Assembly (NCBI GenBank): GCA_000165425.1
Contig: CT868196.1
Location: 124,001 to 188,000 of the forward strand
Length of the DNA stretch: 64,000 nt
DNA from: Paramecium tetraurelia
Lineage: Eukaryota
Direction of reading: 5' to 3'
Shown: positions 35,614 through 59,628 of the stretch, in pieces
How positions within the stretch are numbered: the stretch's first letter is position 1
Layout: every line of letters begins with the position of its first letter
The notes under the pieces: model-generated
What the model was told of the DNA's origin: nothing
Database searches by the model: none
What the model saw: the letters and a program-made list of their open reading frames with translations, nothing else
Made by a program: the position numbers and the translations under genes

Positions 35614-36969
35614 TCATTTAATATGAAAGTGAAATTCTAATTATGGGAAATAAGAAGATTGATTTTTAAGAGGTTTGAAGATCATTATATCTCTACACAT
35701 TTCTGATAATTTAATTTATCTATTAGAATAAGTACTATAGTCTTGAATAAGAATTTCATTTCCAGATTTCTTGTGATTTTTTAAATTCTCAGATCCAATA
35801 TAATTTGAATAATTTCTCATCCTAGTAGTTTTTTATGAAATTTATCTAGGTTTATTTTATTTTTAATTTAATTATTAGAAGTATTGCTCCATAAGAGATT
35901 TAAAAGAATGCTTTTATTAAAAACTTTATGGAAATTAAGCAAATCTATCATTACTGCATATGGAGACTTCCTAATCTTTTTTTTTGGATTGCATTGATTA
36001 ACTAACCTTCTTGTTCCTCAATTAATTAAACGATCTTAATTTTCTCGGTTGGATAGGGGTGATTATGTCGTGTTGTTTGAGAGGATCCTTATCATCTAGG
36101 TGATGAAATTAAGTAATCTCACTTAAATCCAACTTGTTCATAGAATCTTAAATAATTAAAAATATATAATATCTGCTATTTTCATTTTTATAATCAATTT
36201 AATTATTTTGAAGAAAAACTCATTCCTTATGATTGAGTTCTTGTTCAAGCATTTGAATGGTAATAATCTACATTAAATATTAAAGGATGTATACATATTA
36301 TTTGATTTGTTATTCTTGACTCTGTATAATTTTGCTGGTTTATTCTTCAACCAACAGTCTATTTTTCTTTTCTTCATTCAGTTGTCTTTGCAATTAGATC
36401 ACAGATTCGTAATGGAAAGATGGTTTATAAAAGTTTTGGGAAGAATTCAATTGCAAGGATAGGGCTTTGATTAGTTTTTCACAATTTTGATTTAATTGCT
36501 TTTGCCATGAAAGCAATAGAAAGGAATTAATTTAACTACATTTTTTTTTATTAATTTATTCTCCTATCAACTTGAGATTCTTCTACACCTTGTTGATTAC
36601 ATCATCTTCGTTGTTTCTTAACCTAATGCTGACATCTCCTAACTCAGCATTGGTCTCATCTTGTTTATTTTAATCCTACTGAATATTATCTAGATTGCAA
36701 TTGCTATTAACTCTTGAAAGTTAGGAAAGGCTATTATAATTAAATTTATTCGAAAAAGATTAGGATTTTGGTGGAGAAATGGGAGTTGCAGCTCTAAATT
36801 CACACGTGGTCCTTGATATATTTTATTATTGTTAATTCCCTTTGATTTTTGAAGAAATCAATTTAGAGATCACTGATTGCTAATTGGAAAACATTCCAGC
36901 AGATAATTTAGGTGAGTTAAGAATGTATTTCTATTTTTTATGTTTATCTGAGCTATTTTGATGTAGCAT
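35614..36969 (-). CDS. Hypothetical low-complexity/coiled-coil protein
   Basis: Starts MLHQNSSDKHKKQKYILNSPKL; ends ...SYFPQLEFHFHIK*; internal intron structure not fully resolved. Confidence 0.6.
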
Positions 36970-42550: not shown

Positions 42551-43967
42551 TCATTACTGCTATTGATTTCTCTGAAGGTTCATATGTATTTTTAGGTCAG
42601 CCCTACAAGTTGGACAATTCTTGTTAATATATATCCATGCGAGAATGCATTCCTTGTGAAATAAATGTCTAATTTATAATTATAAATTACTTGCATTTTG
42701 TAGATCTGAGATCTGGTTTACTAGTGTAAAGATCAAGGCAAATTGGACAGACATCTGTGTTCTTTATTTGATCGCTTTCGATCAAAGGTAGTTGCTGCAA
42801 GATTTCCTCATCAAAGCTTTTTGCGATGTATTTCTATTCATGTTGCATTTATCTTATCATAGCTAAAGCAGATATGGCTTCTTTGATTTTCTTGTTTCTA
42901 AAGTATTTGCCAATTGCAAATGAAATACTTAGAATCATAATTATGCCAGCAATCGAAGCAACTATAATTATTACAGTAGTAGTTGAAATTGTGTTTTATG
43001 TGTTTTAATTGATGAGGTCCAAAGAAATATGAATATTTTATTCAACTAGAGATTTCTATTTGAAAATAAACCTTATTCTTTTTTGAACGAGTGTGCTATT
43101 ATCATTTCTGTCTTTTAACTCAAATTCTATGGGTGAAGAAGATGTAAATTCATTGCCTTCAACTAAAAGATCATAATATTTTCTATTCAAATCTTCTAGC
43201 GCAGGTATGTAAAGTACTCTCGTCTTCATTATATACCAATAAACTCCTTCAGAACTATTTGTCTAAAATATATTGGTATTTTAAATACTTAAACTATTAA
43301 ACTCATGGATTCATTTTCACTTTCTTCCAAATCTACATATGCATACTTAGCAGTATTTTCTAAATTAAGGATTATTTCTTTGTTTTATAGAATATAAGTT
43401 GCCTTTTAATGGCAATCATTCCCTATGTAATATTTATTACATAAACATTTTCCATCCTAAAGAATAAATATATTGAGTACTTAGCAACTGCCTTGGTTGT
43501 TGCAGTTGTTTGGACACATTTTAGTGTTGGTGGCAGTAACTGAAATGTTGTAATTCTAAGTCCATTCAGATGAAGTAGATATATAAACTTATCGAGATTG
43601 AAAATCTTCACTTGACAAGAGGATGAAATGAGTAAATCTATTTTCAAGATACCTAAGAATTATTGGCATAGTTGCAATACCCATATATATCAAACCCCTT
43701 ATCTTCTGAAATTTCAGACAAGCTTAAACTAAAATCTGGGGGTTTTCCAAATCCATAATGTAAGGAAAAGGTGTCATCTTGCTTGTGAAGTTCAACATTA
43801 ATGGCATAATAAGGAAATTTGGCTGTATTTGCAATGTTAAGTAGATAAGTATTATTTGGAGAACTCAATTAAACATCTGACCAAAATTTTGCATTTTCCG
43901 AGATTTCTATTATAGTTTCTAATGAAAAAGCGATCTGAAATTATAGCATTTACAGAATGAACCACAT
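42551..43967 (-). CDS. Single-pass membrane RING-H2 E3 ligase-like protein with luminal EGF-like module
   Basis: Signal-peptide-like start; MCPNNCNNQGSCQDGKCLCNKYYIGNDC; TM VIIVASIAGIIMILSISFAIG; RING-H2 CPICLD...C.HLFHKECILAWIYINKNCPTCR. Confidence 0.88.
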
Positions 43968-46845: not shown

Positions 46846-46903
46846 TAGTAAATGATTTTATGAATTAATTTATATGATTTATAAGTACACTTCACGTCAA
46901 AAC

Positions 46904-46963
<60 letters not shown>
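46904..46963. repeat. Perfect (TAT)20 microsatellite
   Basis: 60 bp uninterrupted TAT run read directly. Confidence 0.97.
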
Positions 46964-48114: not shown

Positions 48115-48969
48115 TCAATCATCTTCTAAAGATTCCTCTTCGCCTTCATCGTCATCATCGTCCTCATCTCCTTCAAAATCATCTTCTTCATCTTCAGCCT
48201 TCAGTCCCAAATAAGTGAATAAAGCTTTTGGTATGATTGAATTCACAAATTATGATCCCAACTCATAATCAAATTGCTCTCTCTCAACTTTCTCATCTTC
48301 ATTGTTGATCTAATCAACATCTTCGAAGAAATGGAAAAATGTTGGGGCTTTCTCCTCCTTTTCAATTTCCCTTGTTTATCCTGTTTTCTTATTCTTTTAT
48401 TTGCGTTTAACAATCTTCTTGGTGATGTTTTTACCCTCCTTCCATTTGATTGAAGATCCTTTTTATTTAGTTGGAAATTCCTCATCTGAATCCTCAAAAA
48501 CATAGGATTTAGTTAAAATGCATGCACCAAAATGATCATTGTCTTCAAACTCAAAATTGATTGTAAAATCCTTTCCATTTTCTCCTAAATCAACATTTAC
48601 TGATAATAAATGTCTAAATATGGTTTTATCTGCTTCAGATATCAATTTTCCTGTGAGACTATTATTCATCAAAACTTGACCCCAATAATTTTGGAGTGGA
48701 GATGCTTTGACATCTTTGACATCAATTTAATATGTATTTGCATCTTTAATTTCCTCTTCAGTTGGAGCTCTGAGTCCTTTGATGATAGCATTGATTTCAT
48801 TTTATAAAGGAATCACACTCCTCAAATACTCTGTTTAAAGTTGGCGTACTTTCTTCGCAACTTGTTTCTCTGAATCCACCCATTTATTGAGATGGTGCTA
48901 GATTGCGATTGCTGTAGGTTATTATTTTGGAGGAAGTTGTTTAATTGCTTCTAAAATAGTTGTGTCCAT
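48115..48969 (-). CDS. Nucleosome assembly protein (NAP1/SET family), 284 aa
   Basis: LQNYWVKVLMNN...ISEADKTIFRHLLSV...FTINFEFEDNDHF..ILTKSY...GSSIKWKEGKNITKK...TFFHFF...DYELG...IIPKALFTYLG, followed by an acidic tail. Confidence 0.93.
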
Positions 48970-48990
48970 AAATTAAAATAAAAAATTAAT

Positions 48991-50782
48991 TCAATTAATA
49001 CTATTATCTAAATCAGAAACCTTTAATTTAAACTTTGAAAATAGAGTCTAAAAATTAAACCGCTGTAATTATTAAGAATCGGAAAATATTTCTAATTCCA
49101 AATACAATCTCTGTCTGGAAGTTAAAAGGATATCACAATATTTTAATGCTTCCTATATTACATAATTGGAATTACATTAAAATCTTCATATTCACACTAA
49201 TTGTTTCCCAAATGTTTTTTTTTAATATTGAACTATTTAATTGCAGATTCCATTCCCTAATCATATTTATGGAACAACTGGCAAAAGTATTCGAACATCT
49301 ATTGCTTCTCCGATTCATCAAACAAATTAAATTCCCCTAATAATTTCTTATACACAGATTTTATGATAATCTTGGTCTACGTCCTCTATCTATCATATAG
49401 AATATGATCCTCAGTGTTATCCTCTATCAAATACCTTGCCAATAGACTTGATTCATCCTCATTTAATTCAAAGGGTGCTTTCTAAAGACGTAAATTAAGT
49501 TTCTTCAAGAGTCATATATTCATCATCACCTTCACACAGAATTTATTCCTATGTTTCATAATCAATATTATTGCTCAATAATTTGATTTTTAAATTGCTC
49601 ATGATTTCTTTGATGTCATAAGAATTTACTTTTAAACATTGTTTTTTATTTGTAACAGGTAATTATAATTGCAGTTTCTAAGGACTATTATTACTTCTAG
49701 GACTACCATAAATTGTCATTGCTTGTTTAAGACCTATTGATTAGAGTGAACCTTCTTATGATTAGTCTTGATCATCTCTTCTCTAATTCAATTCCTCAAT
49801 CTACTTTTTTAGCATATTGATTCTATCCTGCAATTTTTCCTTTTCTTTATTTTCCATAGATTTGAATACATCATAATTATGTTGTAATTCTCCATTCTTT
49901 GACTCCAATTCTTCTATGAGTTTTTTATTTTATTATAATTATTTGGCTTAATTTTAGACCTATTATTACAATTCATCTATCTTTTTCAAATAATCTTCAG
50001 AGGGAGTTTACTTTTTAGTATTTTGCATTTCCTGTCTCATATACATCATGTGTTTATTAACAGAGTCAAATTGCTTCTCCAAATCTTTCAACCTACCAGT
50101 CAATCTATCCTTATCATTCTTGAGAGATAACAAACTCTATTGCAAACCATGATTCTCCTATTATAAACTGAGAATCATTTAAGACAAATTCAAGTTGTCT
50201 TGTTTGTAGGCTTAAACTAAATTGATTTGAATTTAATCCTTTAGTGATTGATTTACCATCAGAGTTTCATTTGTATCTTGGCTGCATTTGCTACTGATGT
50301 ACAACTACAATTTTTGATATGCTTCTTTTTATTCTTCTATTTCTGCCTCCAATTCTTTGTTCTTAGTCCTTTCAGGATTTCGTTTCAACTTAAAGACTTA
50401 GTCCTCAAGTTCCTTAATTAATTTATCCTGCTCTTTGATTTTTGCTCTCTAAGACAAGATGACTTGAAACTGTCTAAATCAACACATAATTACATCTTTT
50501 TAAGTTTCATTAGTTTTCTACACTTGTTTCTCGAAATTCGCATGCTCTTGTCTCTCCTTCTTCAATTCGAATTTGACTTATTACAATTCCTTCTTCAATT
50601 TCAAATTTTCCTCATACAACCCCTCCTTGTCATAAAGCATCTATTATGGCATTTAACTAAACACATATACAAATCAATTACCGATTTTTCTTGTTTTCCT
50701 TAATTCTAAAGGATGTACTACTACTATCATAGAGTTTCGATTATTGCTGCGATGATGTGATGCTGGTTAATGGCCTTTACAT
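48991..50782 (-). CDS. Coiled-coil protein, N-terminus reminiscent of IQCE-like ciliary proteins
   Basis: Starts MQRPLTSITSS; DKEGLYEENLKLKKELQQVK...LKLKRNPERTKNKELEAEIEE; ends KVSDLDNSIN*. Family call tentative. Confidence 0.65.
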
Positions 50783-50825
50783 AAAAAATAAATAATGAAA
50801 TAAAATAAAAAAACATAGAAATAAA

Positions 50826-51771
50826 TCATAACCCTTTTTATTTAGGTACTTTCATTGGCCAAATCACAGATTAATTCATCATCTTATTCAAAATCTCTGC
50901 TCCCAATACCTTTGCCAGTTGCTTAGCTCTCGTTTTAGCAACTAAAATAACGTTATTTATTTAATATACCTCTCGAACACTAGAAATAGAAATAAAAATT
51001 AATTGTTTGAATAGTCAATTAAAATGATATGCCAGTTAGCTAAATTAATAATAACAGTAGTGAATACATTGAGAATATGAAAGCCAATTACATTGACTAC
51101 AGCTAAAAATCCCCATGCTAATATCGCTAGTACCAATGTTGCCCAAAAGATAAAAGAATTCACTTAACTCACCTAACTCTCATTTACTCTAGTTTCAAAC
51201 ACCCATAGTTGTTCTCCTGAGGCTTCATCTATTTCTTCCCACCATCTTAATCCTACAAGGAGTCTGCCTGTGATATTCTTTGTAACCCAAAAATCAACTG
51301 CTCCAATAACAATCACTATCTCAGGCAAAGTCCAACTATTATATTTATATTTTTGTTACGCTTCTCTTATGAATAGTCCTCCGAACATATAAACAGCCAG
51401 GGCAATCCCTTTGATTGCAAAATGAAATAAAGCCACGGAGGGATGATCAGATTTAGTATAATCAAAATTGTATCCTTCCATTTACTCTTTGTAAAATCCA
51501 TTCAAGCTTAAGACGCTGGTTGTCATCTATTCATAGATCAATTAGTACTTACATCTTATTTATTCTTCTCTTTATACTGTTTGTACTCATTAATCTTACT
51601 AGGTGTTGGCTACTAGAGATTACTGTTCACCATGTTTGATTGAACCATGTTAGATTAGCCTTGAAGGTGTTAATGGTATTATTATTGAGAATTCACTTAT
51701 TAGATTTGTTCGTTGGTTGGGATTGGGATATTTGGATCGAGCAGATGTTAGTAAGGATTTTAAGAATTCAT
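50826..51771 (-). CDS. TVP23: Golgi apparatus membrane protein TVP23/FAM18
   Basis: [14 protein letters not shown]...[25 protein letters not shown]...WVFE...NSFIFW; four short introns. Confidence 0.92.
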
Positions 51772-52619
51772 GATTATTATTATGATTATAATTCAATTTA
51801 ATAAAAATAAGGCCATTATTTGCCGCTTAATATGAGATTACCACCTCTATATGCAATCCCATTTAACACCTTGTTAAACATAGGGTCTGTATACCCTTTG
51901 CCCTTCACACTCTCAACATCCTAGATCAATGCAGTAAAGTCAAGAACATCCATCAACTTCCCATCATGTGGATCTATCTAAGCAATCAATGGAGTCTCAT
52001 AAATGTTGGCTAGAACAGTGCCATCTCCAATGATTTCTAATTCATTCAGTTTATTGAGTGCTTCTCCATTCCCTAAACGTACGCTTACTGTTTTCTTAAC
52101 CTTAAAGTCACTTGGATCAACATGATACAATCTATTTGTTCCGTCTGATATTAAGAGCATCGCATCCCCCTCATTATTCCTATAGGAGGTCATCCCCCAT
52201 CCTTCCTAGATTTCTCCTGGAATTTCCAATTCTTTAACTAATTGCAAATTGCTATCCAATTGAAATGCTTTTCTCTCCTTCCAAGTCAACATATAGATTT
52301 CATCTTTACCGTTTTTGTTTTTAATTTTTGAACATCCCTCACCGAAATACTGTTTACCTATAGGCTAACGTAATTTGAGTTCTATTTTCTTTTTGTCAAA
52401 GACATTATCGACATAATGTATCTCAGAATCGCCATATAAACCTGTACTCTCTAATAAAACATCATCTGAAAAAAAGGAGAGGCCTTCTGTAAAGAACAGC
52501 AAATCTGCTGGTCTCTATATTTTATCCTTTATTATATAAGAGACTTTGTCAGACGCCTTAAAAACAGTAGGATCTTGACTAAATGATTAAAATAGTAGTG
52601 AAATGAAAATTAAAAACAT
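51768..52619 (-). CDS. Glutaminyl cyclase, type I (plant/bacterial beta-propeller glutamine cyclotransferase), secreted
   Basis: Signal peptide; FTEGL, LLESTGLYG, YFGEG, LTWKE, EGWGMT, ISDGT, LNELE, ANIYE, VLNGIAY, SGKQWP; intronless. Confidence 0.93.
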
Positions 52620-52936
52620 ATTTAATTATAATATCCAAATATAAGTAAAATTTGAATTTCAAAATATTACTCAACACCATCTTCATTAGCCATAAAGCAT
52701 CAAACTTTTGGCTTTTATTGGACATCAAAAAAATAACGAGTTTTAAGAACATTAAATTACAAATATGGAATTTGAAATAAAAAAAGAAATAAAGTTATGG
52801 CTTTGTACTTGATATTCAAAAATTTAAATTATCTTTCAATATTGAGATGTGCGGCAAATTAATGTCAATTGAATTTGAAGTATGCGCTAGGAATATATGT
52901 GTATATCTTGGGTTTGGGTGACAAAATGTCATAGCT

Positions 52937-53010
52937 GCCCTTGTAGCTCAGTTGGTTAGAGCGCGAGTCTCATAATCTCGAGGTCGTGGGATCGACCCCC
53001 ACCAAAGGCA
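52937..53010 (+). tRNA. tRNA-Met (CAT), elongator-type
   Basis: Cloverleaf: acceptor GCCCTTG/CAAAGGC, D-arm GCTC/GAGC, anticodon arm CGAGT-CTCATAA-TCTCG, T-arm GTGGG-ATCGACC-CCCAC, discriminator A. Confidence 0.93.
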
Positions 53011-53014
53011 GATA

Positions 53015-53021: not shown

Positions 53022-53075
53022 AATTATGCTGCATGTAATTAATAATTAATTTATTAACTAATATAATTGTTAGTA

Positions 53076-54210
53076 ATGTAAAAGGTATAAAAATTCAATT
53101 TTTGGGGTATTTTCAAGACCTAAATTACACATTTTTGATAAGGGTGCTAAACACACTCTATCAGGAATCAGAGCAACTATTCATGGTGGTCCTAGTTTTT
53201 CAGGAATTTATATGGGTGGTATACTTGGAAATATAGGATCAGAGTTGATATTTCCTCACAATCACTAATAAGGATTAAAATAAGATGAAGATATAATTAT
53301 GAAGATCATCTAAGAGAATTGAAGACATCATCAGGACCTGGTTAAAATTGGTTATTGCACGAAATGAATTATGATAACAAGAGATGATAGAGTGAACAAT
53401 GAAGAATTCAAATGTAGGTCCAAGAAATCATTTAAACAATAGAAAGGATTTTGAATGGATCAATATCACTGTACCTAAAAGAATTGCTGAAGCCTGTGCT
53501 AAAAACCCAAGAGTAATCAGATTTATTCATTTTTCTGCTTGTGGTGCGAATCCTCATCCCGAATCCTTAGATTTATAAACTAAATACATAGGTGAATAGG
53601 AATTAGAGCATGAAATTAATATAGATTTTAAATGCTTTTCCAAATGCCACCATATTCAGACCAAGTGTGATTGTAGGAGACAATGATGATTTTGCATATC
53701 ATTGGTAGGTTCAGAAGAGACACTTCCATAATTTCAATATTGTACCAGATAACTGTTAAGCAAAAAAGACAGCCTGTAAGAAAAGAGAAATATAATAGAT
53801 TTTTGTTCAAGATGTATTCTTAAGCTATGTTGAATGTTTTGAAAATGCCAGAGACTATAGAATAAACCTATGAATTGGGAGGTCCTCATGTTTATACTTT
53901 GTTGGAATATTATGAAATGTTTCATAATATTGTTCAAAGACCGCTAAAATTGGCACACATTGATAAATAACTATTACTAAAGATCGGTAAATACTTTTAA
54001 ATATATAAATTAGCTTAATATATTCCAAATTGGAAGTATTTCAATATAGATTATATCTTAAAACACGGAGATGATATGGTCGTTTAAGTTGGATCAAAAA
54101 TAATTGATGATTTATGCGTTAGACCATTGTAGTTAACACAAGCACTTTAGAATATCTTCTGGGATATTCAGGCTCGTTATGGTGGATCAAGTGAATTATA
54201 TAAAAGATGA
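53076..54210 (+). pseudogene. NDUFA9: NADH:ubiquinone oxidoreductase 39 kDa subunit (NDUFA9) pseudogene
   Basis: Recognisable SGIRATIHGG, IAEAC...RFIHFSACGA, NAFPNATIFRPSVIVG, QPIFVQDV, TYELGGPHVYT. Carries an in-frame TGA (53393), frameshifts and lost splice donors. Confidence 0.85.
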
Positions 54211-54263: not shown

Positions 54264-56852
54264 TCATAAATATCTCTTTAGTATTTCCTGAAGTTCTATT
54301 TCGCTTACAGGTTTTGTGATATAATCTGACATTCCTGCATCTAAGCACTTCTTTTTGTCTTAGTAATCGGAATAGCCACTGCAGCCGATAACGATCTAAC
54401 TAGGATTGAGAGCCAGTATTTATTTAGTGGTTTGAATTCCATTCAAAATGGGCATTTCTACATCCATGAATATGAGTTTGTATCCTTGGCATGAATTGTT
54501 GCACTTTTTGTTTTTCACTTTTTCTATAGACTCCTTTCCAGAAAGAGCAGATTCTACATCAATTTGTTGGTTATTGTTTTTCAGAACTCCTTTTAAAATT
54601 TTGTTGAAGGCATAAACATTAAAGCATTCATCATCAACAATCAAACAGTGAGTACAATACGAAATAATATCCTGAGTTATTTTCTATTACTCTTGGTTCA
54701 ATGTAATAATGTCATCAACGTCCTGACAAAGAGGATAGACTTCAGGAATTTTAAAGATTGCCACTTTTTTTTTTTCAGGTAATTCTATTAGCATATCGAA
54801 ATAAAAGAACGAATAATGATTGTCTTCATCTTTTTTAGATTCTATATTCAACCCAGTGCATCCGATAGTTTAGGCAATCTGATTGCTGATAACTAATCCC
54901 AAACCAACCCCTTGTTCATTTAACTTTCTGCTTTCCTCTGAATTAACTTTAGAGAATGCCTTAAATAACATCTATTGCTCCTCATTACTGATCCCGATGC
55001 CATCATCTCTAACTCCAATTCTCAAAAAAGCAGACTAAAGCGAGATGATAACTTCTATTCTGCTACACGTGAATTTGAATGCATTGCTTAATAGATTCAC
55101 AATGATTTGTTTCAACCTATTCTTGTCTGACATTATGAGCTTTGGGATATTGTTACTGAATTCTGTTAATAACTAAAGGTCTTTCAATCTAGCCTTCAAG
55201 GCAAACATTTTGATGCAATCTTTAATTAAATTCTCGATATTAATAGATACCTTATTTATTTTGAATTTGCCATTCTTAATTTAAGCCAAATCCAATAAAT
55301 CATTGGACAAATTTAACATATATTTGGAATTGTCCAAAGCTATTTATAGATTCTCAGCTATTTCTTAATTACTTTTTATGATCGGATTCAAGAGAACACA
55401 TTCGATCATCTGTATGATGCAGCCTAATGGTTGCCGGTATTCGTGACTCACAAATGATAGCATCTTCGATTTCTAAATATCATAATCCTTTAAATATCTT
55501 ATTTTTTATCTATGTGTTACATCTCTACAAATTATTAATATGCTCCTATCTTTAGTAAGGGTCAAAGTGAACTCCATCAATCTTTCATTTTATTCATGTC
55601 TGGATTAACCTCCTGCATTAGATTAAGAGATTGTTATATTTTTATTTGTGTTTAATGATATGCTTCCACTAAAATGAGTATTCACTGTTATAACATCAGT
55701 TCTCCTGGCTTATATCATTCTTTCAAGTAAGTCTTTCATACTGATAGTTTGATATTTATCAAACATTTAAAAGTCTAAAAGTGGCTATTTCACTGAACAA
55801 AACAGTTCCTTCTAAAGAAAGATAGATTTGCATAGGCGAGAATGTTATAAGTTCGATAATCGTTATTGAACAGATTCCCTTCTCGAACTAGGATCATCTG
55901 AGATATCTTAACCTTAAATATGCAGAGTATTTAAACTCTCCAAGATATACAATATCTCTCCTTCCTATTCACGACCAAATAGAATTCTGGTGGCATTATT
56001 TACATACTGTATTTTGTAAGACTGAGTCTTCTCATCTTATATATCCAATACTATTAAGCCTTCTTATAAAAAGTCAAGAGAATTATAAATAATTTCTGAA
56101 TTGATATAATGTTATTAAATATTGCTAAAATTATTGCACAGTATTCTTGCGCTCTCCTTTGATTGATCTAATATAAAATTTTTATCACTGTCAGCCACAG
56201 AAACCACTCTTTTGGCTAAGCTGTCCAGTTTCTGCATAGGCCCGCCATCAATTGGAATTGTTGTATTCAATTAACTTTGGTTTTTCTTTTTCAATGTCAC
56301 ATTCTGTTAGAAGGACAGTAATAAACACAACATTAATTGTGGTTACTCTAAGCCAAACTTGCTCACAGTGTGTAAATATATTTACTAAAATGCGCATACC
56401 AGGATCATTAAACCATAATAGAAAAACATGGGGTTTATTAAAAGCTGATTTTATGTCCTCACTTATTTAATCAGATCTTTTGAAAGGTATTAACATATTA
56501 TTAATTAAGCGTAAGAAGCGTGGTTTAAGTTTTCGTAATTCAGAATTATTAGACAGATCAAATCTATTTGAATACAGAATATAGTTCCAATGATTTTCAC
56601 TCTCAATTTAGCATAATGAAATAGTAATACAATAGGGAATATCAAGCATAGGATTACCAAACATAATAAATTACTTGTATTCCTACTTTCGAGGTAGAAA
56701 TAAACGGAGTAACAAAATGACATCCAATGAATTGCTTATACTTTCACAAATTATCTGTCCATCATATTCTAAAGTCCTTGGCTTTTCGATAAAATATTAA
56801 AATAAAAACTAATTATTACAACATAAAATAATCACTTTCCCTCTTCAGACAT
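54264..56852 (-). CDS. Hybrid sensor histidine kinase (TM + HisKA + HATPase + receiver)
   Basis: H-box VSHEYRQPLG; N-box RLKQIIVNLLSNAFKFT; G1 VRDDGIGIS; G2 GVGLGLVIS; receiver LIVDDECFN...IFMDVEMPILNG...GCSG...TKP. Start approximate. Confidence 0.92.
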
Positions 56853-57143
56853 TTCTTTTTATCTTGTCTAAGTTGTATATACGTTACCATCCTAATTTAT
56901 TATATTAAAAAAACAAATTAATTTCATCATCACACCAGCAATTTCGAAATTTTAAGAAATATACTTTCCCATTTACCTCTCCAATTCAAAAATAGAACAC
57001 TACTTATTCACTTCCATTATTTTCCTGTTTCATCTTTCTCATAACCATCTGCTCAAATTCATTCCCACCCAAACAATAAATACAAAAATAATTGATTAGA
57101 TCTAAGAATTTTAAGAGACAATTTATTGAGAAATAAGATAATC

Positions 57144-57584
57144 TCATGATTATGATTGATTATTATTATAATGATCACGAGATGGAATGCTGAAATTATA
57201 GATGATTTGCCTATGCAATTCTGAATCTAATGTAATCTTCTCCATTTAAAATTGAATGACGCTTAACATTTCTTTGTTTTTATCTTGATCCACATCTCCC
57301 AATACCTTCTTCACCCATCTACTGTTGTATTTATTCAGTCGTTTTTGGATTTATTGTGCCTTGTTCAACTACTGAAACTTAAGAACTTTGCTATTGTTTT
57401 ACAAAGCTTCCCTTTCTGATTTCAATATTTTTATTGCATTCTATATATCAGCTGTCTAATTTAACGCATTTGTTATCTATTCGACTGTATAATCATTTCC
57501 TAATATCATCTGAATTTATTCAAGAGGCGATTTCTCAGGCTTTTTTGATCCTTTAATAGGCAAGGGCTTCTTAGCAAAACTCAT
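57144..57584 (-). CDS. Small protein with possible UBA/CUE-like helical bundle (146 aa)
   Basis: MSFAKKPLPIKGSKKPEKSPLEQIQMILGNDYTVEQITNALNQTADIQNAIKIL...; ends NNNQSQS*. Confidence 0.6.
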
Positions 57585-57629
57585 AACAAATTTATAATTA
57601 TTTTCAACTAATTAAAAATAACATTCAAA

Positions 57630-59628
57630 TCATCTCCTATAACGAGGCTTCTTGAAATTAAACCATAAATGAAGGATTCCCCTAGAAAAGACTGATTTAA
57701 AACCCATACGATCAGAATAATCCCACTCCTTGCATAAAATTTAAAATGCTAAATCCTCATACGGAGGACCAGCAATAAATCTGATAATGCAATAATCTGG
57801 ATTCTCACAAGTTTCCAAAGTGTATTTAGGAGCCTTAAAATTAATAACATCAGAAATAATACTTAAGTTTTATCTATCAATTCTGGATAGAAGACATTAA
57901 ATTTGTATCCTTGAATAGTCTTGGGAGGGGGATTGTCAACATCATAATGAGTTTTATTATACATATTCCAATCGAAACCCATTTTAACTCTGTTGAAATA
58001 TTAAGGACGCTTCAACTTATATTTTTAACTCCATGATGGTTCTTGTCTTTAGGGTACAACTTCATTAAAATATACTTCATCTTCTTCTAATGGCTTTGAT
58101 CTTTCATATTCAAACATTTATTGTGCCAAAATATCTAATCCTTCAACATTATCTTCTAGTTTTCTATTATTTGGAATTGAAAATTCAGGCAATTTATTTT
58201 ATTTTCCCTTTTATTTTTCCTTTTCTTTTTCCTTCTCTTTCTTCTTCTTCAATTATTATTTTTCTAATTCGATTTTGGCATTGTTTAGGAATTCTGTTAA
58301 AATTGTAATTCTCTAATCAGTTAGTTATTTCAAATCATCATTTTCCAATATAAATTCATCACAATCAACAGGATCTGGACTTACACATTCATATTCTGTT
58401 TATTCTTAAATTTCAACCTAATAATGATATTTTTCTGTGGCATTTCTTTCTACATTGATTTATATATCCTTTGTATTGATTCCTACATCCAATACTAATT
58501 AATTGTCTTACCTCATACTCTTATACTTTAGATCCTTGCAAAAAACCTTATAATAATTTTTTAATATAGTTTTAGCCTTAATAACCTTTAATTTCTTTAA
58601 AATCTTTTCCCAATAATCAAAATCTATTTTGTATTCAGCTCCATAATTCAACATCTGATTGATCTCTCCCTCCAATTCATCTAATCCTTCTCTTGACTTG
58701 CCTTAAAACATCTTCTTGATATCCTATTTGAATTCACTCTGTATTCCGAATTTTGGACATTTTGGATCTTTTTCTTTTTGTTCTCTCCACTCTACTTCTG
58801 CTTAAGCTATTGATATTATGGATGCCCAATAATCTTAGAAATTACTTTTATTGTCTATTTCTATGGCAAATTATTTCTTTGATTCATTCAGTATTACTTT
58901 TTGATCCTCATGACCTAGAGTCTTGATAAATTAAGATGGATTATGCATAATTTATTCTAATTGCTTCTGATGCCCAATTTAACCCTAAATTTATATTATA
59001 TATATTATACTTTATATATGCAACAAATTCTAACAAATTTATCAAAGGGAAGTTCTCTTTATTATTGGATTCTAATCAAAGGTCTCAGCTTTTCAACCTT
59101 CTCAAAAAATGCATCCTCATTATCAATCCACTGTTTATAGTTTTCCATTTGTCTTTCTTTATTTAATCTATTTTTCTCTTCCTCCAATTTTATTTTTTCT
59201 TCCTATTTCTTCTACCTTTAAGATTTTAATTTTTCTATCTCTTTCAACATATCATCTAATTTCTCTTTCAATTCATGCTCAGATATTCCATGCAGACCTT
59301 TCTCATCTAACTTACTCTTCCAGATTAAAGACTTAGCTAAATTTTTATCACCATAAGGGTTGTCCTAATCAGTATAACCAATTTTTTATAAATACTTCTG
59401 CTTCATCTTATCTAATGAAGCATAAGCCTTTAACAGTTGATTTTTTGATTGCATCTTACTACTTTTTTAATATTTCTTTATTGATTAGTGTTTTCTTGAA
59501 CTTCTTGATCTAGATGACGAAGAAGATGATGATGAAGGTGAGGAAGAAGATGATGAAAATGATAGTGATTCAGCAGATGATGCTGAAGAGGATTCATTTG
59601 CTTGTTTTCTTTTTAAAAATTCTGTCAT
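57630..59628 (-). CDS. CACTIN: Cactin (spliceosome-associated)
   Basis: Ser-rich N-terminus; GYTDQDNPYGDKNL; C-terminal domain QYFNRVKMGFDWNMYNKTHYDVDNPPPKTIQGYKFNVFYPELID...IRFIAGPPYEDLAF...FNFKKPRYRR*. Confidence 0.95.

What the first reader, a model, noticed from the sequence alone, without database searches (positions are those of the whole stretch)
51768..51771. Bacterial-style ATGA stop/start overlap between glutaminyl cyclase and TVP23
Seen: on the minus strand the cyclase ends ...gaa tta taa tca taa taa taa tcA TGA, and the same ATG opens TVP23 (MNSQNPYQHLLDP, in frame to the conserved domain after splicing). There is zero intergenic space in a eukaryote. Inference: either the TVP23 promoter lies inside the cyclase CDS and the cyclase 3' UTR inside TVP23, or a bicistronic mRNA with termination-reinitiation exists. 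Both products are secretory-pathway proteins.
Basis: partly seen in the sequence, partly recalled or inferred. Interest (0 to 1): 0.7.

Follow-up and report, generated by a model that had tools for sequence, protein, structure and literature searches.

The report
Two Paramecium genes sharing four bases
In Paramecium, one gene's stop codon overlaps the next gene's start codon, but RNA reads point to two separate messages rather than a bacterial-style operon, so this is an extreme case of the tight gene packing already known in this organism.

Summary
The overlap is real. In P. tetraurelia (code 6) a 283-aa glutaminyl cyclase (52619-51768, PF05096) ends at the TGA of ATGA, whose ATG opens TVP23 (279 aa, four introns, PF05832). 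Independent contigs show no sequence error. P. octaurelia has the same cyclase end, and P. sonneborni keeps TVP23 residues 1-41 (39/41 identical) while losing Met42. Stranded oligo-dT reads argue against one bicistronic mRNA as the main form. Depth falls to 1.3 and 0.7 in the last 72 nt of the cyclase and is 12 and 16 just after the ATG; TVP23 averages about 5 times the cyclase. Best reading: two overlapping single-gene transcripts. TVP23 starts in the AT-rich last codons of the cyclase (12% GC), and the cyclase 3' UTR runs into TVP23. Neither end was mapped. With TGA the only stop, ATGA is the commonest single place where a frame entering a neighbour's start region ends (201 of 1682 trials). 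Public gene models hide this overlap by adding an intron or moving the start. Overlapping UTRs in Paramecium are already in print; rare read-through with reinitiation is not excluded (about 6%).

The parts
51768..52619 (-). Glutaminyl cyclase (plant/bacterial type, PF05096), 283 aa, single exon, hydrophobic N-terminus read by eye as a signal peptide
   Evidence: 96% identical over the full length to P. octaurelia CAD8161147.1; no gaps in contigs
51768..51771 (-). ATGA: cyclase TGA (51770-51768) overlapping the TVP23 ATG (51771-51769)
   Evidence: spanned by X15 contig 50620-51809 with 0 differences
51772..51812 (-). Dual-use stretch: last cyclase codons (YFYQIELQSQQQS) and inferred TVP23 initiation region and 5' UTR; about 12% GC
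   Evidence: GC 0.119 over the last 42 nt, against 0.34 for the CDS; 11 of 1015 internal CDS windows are that low. The 30 nt before the ATG are 0.10 GC, against a median of 0.115 before 30 predicted starts. Start site inferred, not mapped.
51553..51771 (-). TVP23 exon 1 (73 codons; Met1 51771, Met42 51648, Met47 51633). Its first ~45 nt probably double as the cyclase 3' UTR (inferred)
   Evidence: RNA depth 12.2/15.8 at 51700-51771; 39/41 identity to P. sonneborni residues 1-41
51527..51552 (-). TVP23 intron 1 (26 nt)
   Evidence: loose end at 51526, 3 reads in X19
51336..51359 (-). TVP23 intron 2 (24 nt)
   Evidence: loose ends at 51360 in X19 and X21
51040..51067 (-). TVP23 intron 3 (28 nt)
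   Evidence: loose ends at 51068 in X19 and X21
50942..50969 (-). TVP23 intron 4 (28 nt)
   Evidence: needed to reproduce P0162 exactly; no read row shown for it
50826..51771 (-). TVP23 gene (Golgi membrane protein TVP23 homolog, PF05832/DUF846), 279 aa

Best explanation
The two genes are transcribed as separate capped, polyadenylated mRNAs whose ends overlap by roughly 50-70 nt. SHOWN: the ATGA overlap; both ORFs intact; TVP23 spliced; both transcribed from the minus strand; a depth minimum at the junction; TVP23 about 5-fold more abundant. INFERRED: TVP23 starts about 10-25 nt upstream of its ATG, inside the cyclase's Q-S-Q-Q-Q-S codons, which are AT-rich enough to serve as a normal Paramecium initiation region. 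The cyclase mRNA is cleaved some 40-50 nt into TVP23 exon 1. Each protein is made by ordinary cap-dependent scanning to the first AUG. ORIGIN (inferred): the genes were already nearly abutting. TGA is the only stop and TAA reads as Gln, so the cyclase frame extends a few low-complexity codons through the neighbour's leader and ends at the first TGA available, the one inside ATGA. The overlap is a by-product of compaction plus code 6, not a coupling device.
For: 72-nt bins, X19/X21: 51772-51843 depth 1.28/0.69; 51700-51771 depth 12.2/15.8 (step 9.5x and 23x). Gene means 24.8/15.1 for TVP23 and 4.5/2.8 for the cyclase. The cyclase's last bin is 0.28/0.25 of its gene mean, like TVP23's own last bin (0.23/0.37), so it tapers like a transcript end. 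In X19 both genes peak about 250-280 spliced nt before their stops (read). An equally AT-rich bin inside TVP23 (GC 0.19) keeps depth 6.4/6.8. Composition of the shared stretch. The 30 nt before Met42 and Met47 are 37% GC, unlike a start region. Null model: ATGA 201 of 1682 trials, next commonest single offset 53. The cyclase tail is 15 residues from the conserved W, against 13 or fewer in 103 of 114 homologs and 13 in the two homologs named as ciliate. Literature: 5' UTR median 19 nt, 3' UTR median 44 nt, genes 'sometimes overlap' (PMC5485702, passages); start sites mostly -26 to -11 and AT-rich (10.64898/2026.09.19.752804). The next two gaps downstream are only 43 and 21 nt.
Against: Neither the start site nor the poly(A) site was mapped: no start peak near the junction and no poly(A) loose end among the rows shown. 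Depth is low (about 2.5 read-equivalents in the junction bin over both runs), reads are 58 nt, and both raw RNA runs come from one study. The tool does not report pairs spanning the junction. The junction bin is AT-rich (GC 0.22) and oligo-dT favours 3' ends; both would lower depth upstream of TVP23. The tail is only 2-3 residues longer than usual (8 of 114 homologs are as long or longer), so the read-through origin is weakly supported. My gene models are rough: retrained without these two genes, the model fused them with invented introns whether or not overlap was allowed.
Confidence: 0.84

Rival explanations
1. Bicistronic mRNA with termination-reinitiation at AUGA: cyclase transcripts read through TVP23 and terminating ribosomes restart on the overlapping AUG, as the main or a minor route to TVP23.
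For: AUGA is a known stop-restart geometry (PMC10275272, PMC5972666, passages). A UGGGA, the TURBS core, lies 90 nt upstream. Junction depth is low but not zero, so rare read-through is possible.
Against: There is a depth minimum at the junction, and the downstream gene is about 5x more abundant, so a bicistronic RNA cannot be the main source. The UGGGA lies in the conserved N-G-I codons and is paired in the predicted fold, which is no more stable than shuffles (z -0.9). 3 of 31 predicted genes carry one in their last 110 nt, this gene included. The influenza B TURBS region is about 45 nt. Leaky scanning is excluded by 26 internal ATGs.
Confidence: 0.06
2. TVP23 really starts at Met42 or Met47, so the CDSs do not overlap and the ATG in ATGA is incidental.
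For: Public models of P. octaurelia, P. primaurelia and a further Paramecium record start at Met42 (238 aa), and one P. sonneborni copy at Met47. Met47 is kept in 5 of 5 aligned sequences. A Met1 start gives 100 residues before the HP motif, longer than in any non-Paramecium hit with the motif (at most 93). Coding score of codons 2-41 is only +3.6.
Against: RNA depth is 12-28 over 51628-51771, upstream of Met42, and collapses just upstream of Met1, so the transcript contains the first AUG. Residues 1-41 are 39/41 identical in P. sonneborni, as conserved as the rest (218/233), and Met42 is Leu there. A later start would need a 5' UTR of over 120 nt holding an in-frame AUG, against a median of 19 nt.
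Confidence: 0.07
3. The cyclase ends earlier (sequence error, or the 23-nt intron 51867-51845 implied by the public P. tetraurelia model P0004), or the two genes are spliced into one fusion protein.
For: P0004 is annotated with a frameshifted end 16 residues shorter. My retrained model preferred a spliced fusion. One loose-end row was not shown.
Against: Contigs show 0 differences across the region. The P0004 intron removes LNGIAY...GK.W, which 10 of the 11 aligned sequences keep, P0004 being the exception. The P. octaurelia model keeps it. No loose ends are shown at these predicted introns, though 51623-51599 has depth 16-24. No PF05096+PF05832 protein among 35 longer hits.
Confidence: 0.03

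Closest known systems
Overlapping UTRs and transcription units in Paramecium tetraurelia (PMC5485702; 10.64898/2026.09.19.752804)
   Same: Same organism; very short UTRs; adjacent transcripts overlap; promoter elements are proposed to overlap the upstream neighbour's 3' UTR.
   Different: Here the overlap reaches the CDSs themselves (gap -4), so the initiation region must lie in coding sequence. The passages read do not describe CDS-level overlaps.
Overlapping transcription in compact microsporidian genomes (PMC2803860, passages)
   Same: Termination and initiation signals move into neighbouring genes when intergenic DNA shrinks. That paper kept 9 of 129 annotated CDS overlaps after start correction, with signals inside adjacent CDSs.
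   Different: Free-living ciliate with a median intergenic length of 161 bp. No evidence here of abundant multigene transcripts. The code-6 stop rule gives a specific route to ATGA.
Coupled termination-reinitiation at AUGA/UAAUG (caliciviruses, influenza B; PMC10275272, PMC5972666)
   Same: Identical stop-start geometry; a UGGGA occurs upstream.
   Different: Those systems translate both ORFs from one RNA, with the downstream product at 3-20%. Here the downstream gene has its own, more abundant RNA, and no exposed TURBS is predicted.
Green algal bicistronic genes translated by leaky scanning (PMC11892635, passages)
   Same: Nuclear, co-linear ORFs with very short spacing.
   Different: Algal ORF1s are short (medians 291 and 357 nt) with a bias against upstream AUGs. 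The cyclase is 852 nt with 26 internal ATGs, and the RNA is not mainly bicistronic.

Membership tests
Overlapping single-gene transcription units of compact eukaryotic genomes | Spacing too short to hold both UTRs | tested here: met
   CDS gap -4 against UTR medians of 19 and 44 nt
Overlapping single-gene transcription units of compact eukaryotic genomes | Downstream gene has its own transcript | tested here: met
   9.5x and 23x depth step at the ATG; gene means differ about 5x; indirect, from coverage
Overlapping single-gene transcription units of compact eukaryotic genomes | Mapped start site inside the upstream CDS and poly(A) site inside the downstream gene | tested here: inconclusive
   No start peak or poly(A) loose end shown at this depth; taper and composition are consistent
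Coupled termination-reinitiation (calicivirus / influenza B type) | Stop and start overlap or lie within about 20 nt | tested here: met
   AUGA
Coupled termination-reinitiation (calicivirus / influenza B type) | Downstream ORF is supplied by one shared bicistronic RNA | tested here: not met
   Depth minimum at the junction; downstream gene about 5x higher. A minor read-through RNA is not excluded.
Coupled termination-reinitiation (calicivirus / influenza B type) | TURBS: exposed UGGGA in a structured element, pairing with 18S helix 26 | tested here: inconclusive
   UGGGA 90 nt upstream, paired in the predicted fold, z -0.9. Paramecium 18S complementarity not tested.
Coupled termination-reinitiation (calicivirus / influenza B type) | Downstream translation depends on upstream termination | not testable with these tools
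   Needs reporters or ribosome profiling
Green algal leaky-scanning bicistrons | Short ORF1 depleted of AUG | tested here: not met
   852 nt, 26 internal ATG, 30.5 per kb against a median of 22.9 in 31 predicted CDSs
Glutaminyl cyclase PF05096 | Score above the curated cut-off over the whole profile | tested here: met
   179.3 bits against 22.3, profile 31-249 of 249; catalytic activity not tested
TVP23 / DUF846 PF05832 | Score above the curated cut-off | tested here: met
   121.3 bits against 22.6; UniRef names the cluster members TVP23 homolog

The most novel reading that the evidence does not exclude
A fraction of cyclase transcripts reads through TVP23, and ribosomes terminating at AUGA reinitiate on the overlapping AUG, helped by the UGGGA 90 nt upstream. 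That would be virus-like termination-reinitiation in a ciliate nuclear gene, one member of a class of ATGA-joined gene pairs that code-6 genomes generate readily and gene finders hide. The milder half of this (a hidden genome-wide set of ATGA overlaps with no coupling) I put near 50%, at interest about 0.4.
Probability: 0.06. Interest if true: 0.75.

Novelty: new member of a known kind. Interest (0 to 1): 0.27.

Why it matters
Modest. It is a clean case in which a eukaryotic core initiation region must be written inside another gene's coding sequence. That makes it a handy test of what a Paramecium promoter needs: synonymous GC-raising changes in about 14 codons alter only the promoter role. 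It also exposes an annotation blind spot. The public models resolve this one locus in incompatible ways: an intron that deletes the cyclase's conserved last motif in P. tetraurelia, and a TVP23 start moved to Met42 in P. octaurelia. Counts of overlapping genes in ciliates (144 of 39,521 in P. tetraurelia and 0 in three other Paramecium species, PMC7285179 Table 1) may therefore be too low. It would matter much more only if read-through with reinitiation were shown.

Tried and rejected
Whole genome not held, so no genome-wide count and no direct ohnolog check; one P. tetraurelia copy of each protein appeared. No listed holder of the stretch is on record as RNA; this is no evidence either way, and raw reads added by species label were laid instead. 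Two metagenome scans (TVP23; the 82%-identical fragment P0204) found no related locus, so the overlap could not be read as DNA in any other species; cross-species support is from proteins only. No cyclase named for P. primaurelia, P. pentaurelia or P. sonneborni was seen in the hit tables; absence or missing annotation cannot be told apart. Using my own gene finder as evidence for the overlap is rejected: it chose ATGA when the cyclase was in its training set and a spurious fusion when both genes were left out. TURBS-like fold not significant. Gene ids were not found in the single supplementary file of PMC5485702 held as text. PMC1182411 was not held and was seen only as a reference. Earlier findings of the scan: none. 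No structure or complex prediction was run, since nothing suggests the proteins bind. Two other ATGA coincidences (35614-35617, 43226-43229) were rejected as gene pairs.

Full report
ORGANISM AND ANATOMY. The window is 21-32% GC per 2 kb, reads under code 6 and has introns mostly of 21-33 nt in my gene models. Its proteins match public P. tetraurelia records (P0004 100% over 89% of the cyclase; P0162 identical to the spliced TVP23). On the minus strand ATG 52619 opens a 283-codon ORF, PF05096 at E 1.2e-52, closed by TGA 51770-51768. ATG 51771-51769 opens TVP23: five exons, 279 aa, PF05832 at E 4e-35 for the part scanned.

SEQUENCE ERROR. Contigs of run X15 cover 50620-51809 and 51780-51945, and one of X3 covers 51917-52617, all with 0 other letters and 0 gaps; the only variant row is a change at 51915 in RNA reads, a synonymous third position. 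X15 may be the same strain as the assembly, so the stronger support is the P. octaurelia cyclase: 283 aa, 96% identical, ending in the same QIELQSQQQS.

WHICH START. Public models disagree. P. tetraurelia P0162 and the P. sonneborni model P0161 start at Met1. P. octaurelia and the record shared by P. primaurelia and a further Paramecium start at Met42, and a second P. sonneborni copy at Met47. Residues 1-41 are 39 of 41 identical between P. tetraurelia and P. sonneborni, against 218 of 233 for residues 47-279, and Met42 is Leu in that copy. RNA covers 51628-51771 at depth 12-28 and drops just upstream of Met1. The 30 nt before Met1 are 10% GC, those before Met42 and Met47 37%; the median for 30 predicted starts is 11.5%. 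Against Met1: Met47 is kept in 5 of 5 sequences, the N-terminal part would be longer than in other homologs, and its coding score is weak (+3.6). Met1 is the most likely start.

ONE RNA OR TWO. I laid 4 of the 24 listed runs: two raw stranded oligo-dT runs of one study (X19, X21; 33% and 42% of each read; 487 and 304 reads laid) and two contig sets. Nearly all first mates lie on +, as expected for minus-strand mRNA. Depth in the last 72 nt before the ATG is 1.28 and 0.69; in the first 72 nt of TVP23 it is 12.2 and 15.8. Gene means are 24.8/15.1 for TVP23 and 4.5/2.8 for the cyclase. The cyclase body rises again to 12.9/6.6 at 51988-52059, so the junction is a local minimum rather than a point on a smooth 3'-bias slope. 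The cyclase's last bin is 0.28/0.25 of its mean, like TVP23's last bin at 0.23/0.37. In X21 the first TVP23 bin equals the gene mean (1.05), so 3' bias over TVP23 is small. Limits: about 2.5 read-equivalents in the junction bin; that bin is 22% GC (an equally AT-rich bin inside TVP23 keeps 6.4/6.8); no start peak near the junction; no poly(A) loose end among the 5 of 6 rows shown; mate pairs across the junction are not reported. So separate transcripts are shown indirectly, their ends are inferred, and a minor read-through RNA remains possible.

THE SHARED STRETCH. The last 42 coding nt of the cyclase are 11.9% GC against 34% for the gene. This is the joint lowest of 30 predicted gene ends (median 26%) and is matched by 11 of 1015 internal windows. 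Paramecium 5' UTRs have a median of 19 nt and 3' UTRs of 44 nt (PMC5485702, passages). P. tetraurelia start sites lie mostly at -26 to -11 in AT-rich DNA (10.64898/2026.09.19.752804, parts 1-2 of 6 and passages). These values place the TVP23 start in the E-L-Q-S-Q-Q-Q-S codons and the cyclase poly(A) site in TVP23 exon 1 (inference). The neighbourhood is tight: TVP23 stop to next ATG is 43 nt, and the next gap is 21 nt, both shorter than the two UTR medians added.

WHY ATGA. Under code 6 only TGA stops, and it is rare in AT-rich flanks (0.018 per position). 12 of 30 predicted starts read ATGA. I let a frame enter 3-60 nt upstream of 29 predicted starts, this case left out: 237 of 1682 trials stopped before the ATG, 475 ran in frame into the gene, 769 stopped deeper inside it (commonest single offset 53 trials) and 201 stopped at ATGA. 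The starts come from a rough self-trained model, so the figures are approximate. The cyclase has 15 residues from the conserved W to its end. Of the 120 hits, P0003 and 5 without the motif were dropped; of the remaining 114, 103 have 13 or fewer and 8 have 15 or more. The Tetrahymena malaccensis and Pseudomicrothorax homologs have 13. A 2-3 codon drift into the neighbour's leader fits, but is not proven. These ciliate homologs also make a recent bacterial import of an operon unlikely; no tree was built.

REINITIATION TESTED. AUGA is a known stop-restart geometry, with a UGGGA-containing TURBS upstream in caliciviruses and influenza B (PMC10275272 and PMC5972666, passages). A UGGGA does lie 90 nt upstream here. 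It is formed by the conserved N-G-I codons; GGG is 6 of 23 Gly codons in this gene, and 3 of 31 predicted genes, this one included, have the word in their last 110 nt. It is paired in a fold no better than shuffles (z -0.9). Leaky scanning as in green algae (PMC11892635, passages) is ruled out by 26 internal ATGs.

ANNOTATION. The P. tetraurelia cyclase model P0004 needs a 23-nt intron at 51867-51845 that removes LNGIAY...GK.W, kept in the other 10 of 11 aligned sequences; TVP23 there starts at Met1. The P. octaurelia models keep the cyclase whole and start TVP23 at Met42. Both avoid the overlap; that this is the cause is my inference. My own model also mis-solved the locus once retrained without it.

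WHAT IS KNOWN. Overlapping UTRs in P. tetraurelia are stated in PMC5485702. 144 of 39,521 annotated genes overlap, orientation not given (PMC7285179, passages and tables). Short distances suffice for independent regulation (PMC8997361, passages). Microsporidia show widespread overlapping transcription and a few true CDS overlaps (PMC2803860, passages). In the listings of searches I saw no paper on this locus, on same-strand CDS overlaps, or on bicistronic mRNA in Paramecium. I read listings only, and the library lacks most subscription journals. The bioRxiv supplements, which may hold this gene's start site, could not be seen.

VERDICT. Observation confirmed; the overlapping-transcripts alternative is supported (0.84); later start 0.07; reinitiation 0.06; earlier stop or fusion 0.03. 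New member of a known kind; interest 0.27.

Noticed in passing
window 48115-51771 (-); protein P0161: The public P. sonneborni model CAD8075250.1 (1120 aa) fuses three neighbouring genes: TVP23, a coiled-coil gene and a NAP-family gene. In this window they are separated by 43 and 21 nt; probably an annotation artefact of the tight packing.
   Followed up: partly
window 51768-52619 (-): The cyclase has no intron and uses the four Gly codons evenly (6/6/5/6), whereas GGA is 239 of 474 window-wide. No cyclase named for three other aurelia species was seen although their TVP23 was.
   Followed up: partly
window 51915: A>T on + in 4 of 9 reads (X19) and 1 of 3 (X21); synonymous Val codon; contigs of X15 and X3 break beside it. 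Probably a strain or allele difference.
   Followed up: partly
window 35614-35617 and 43226-43229 (-): Two more ATGA coincidences between code-6 ORFs of 150 aa or more. Neither is a gene pair in my models and none of the four ORFs passes a Pfam cut-off; they show how easily the motif arises.
   Followed up: yes
window 52936-53011 (+): tRNA-Met (CAT) about 320 nt upstream of the cyclase ATG, on the opposite strand.
   Followed up: no
window 53040-53900 (-): Minus-strand coding fragments that look like a complex I NDUFA9-type subunit (label recalled, not tested). My model instead put a + strand gene here, probably wrongly.
   Followed up: no
window 54264-57048 (-), 57144-59628 (-), 48115-48969 (-): Hybrid histidine kinase with receiver domain, cactin, and nucleosome assembly protein; ordinary genes.
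   Followed up: no
window about 46890-46960: AAT trinucleotide microsatellite of about 19 units.
   Followed up: no
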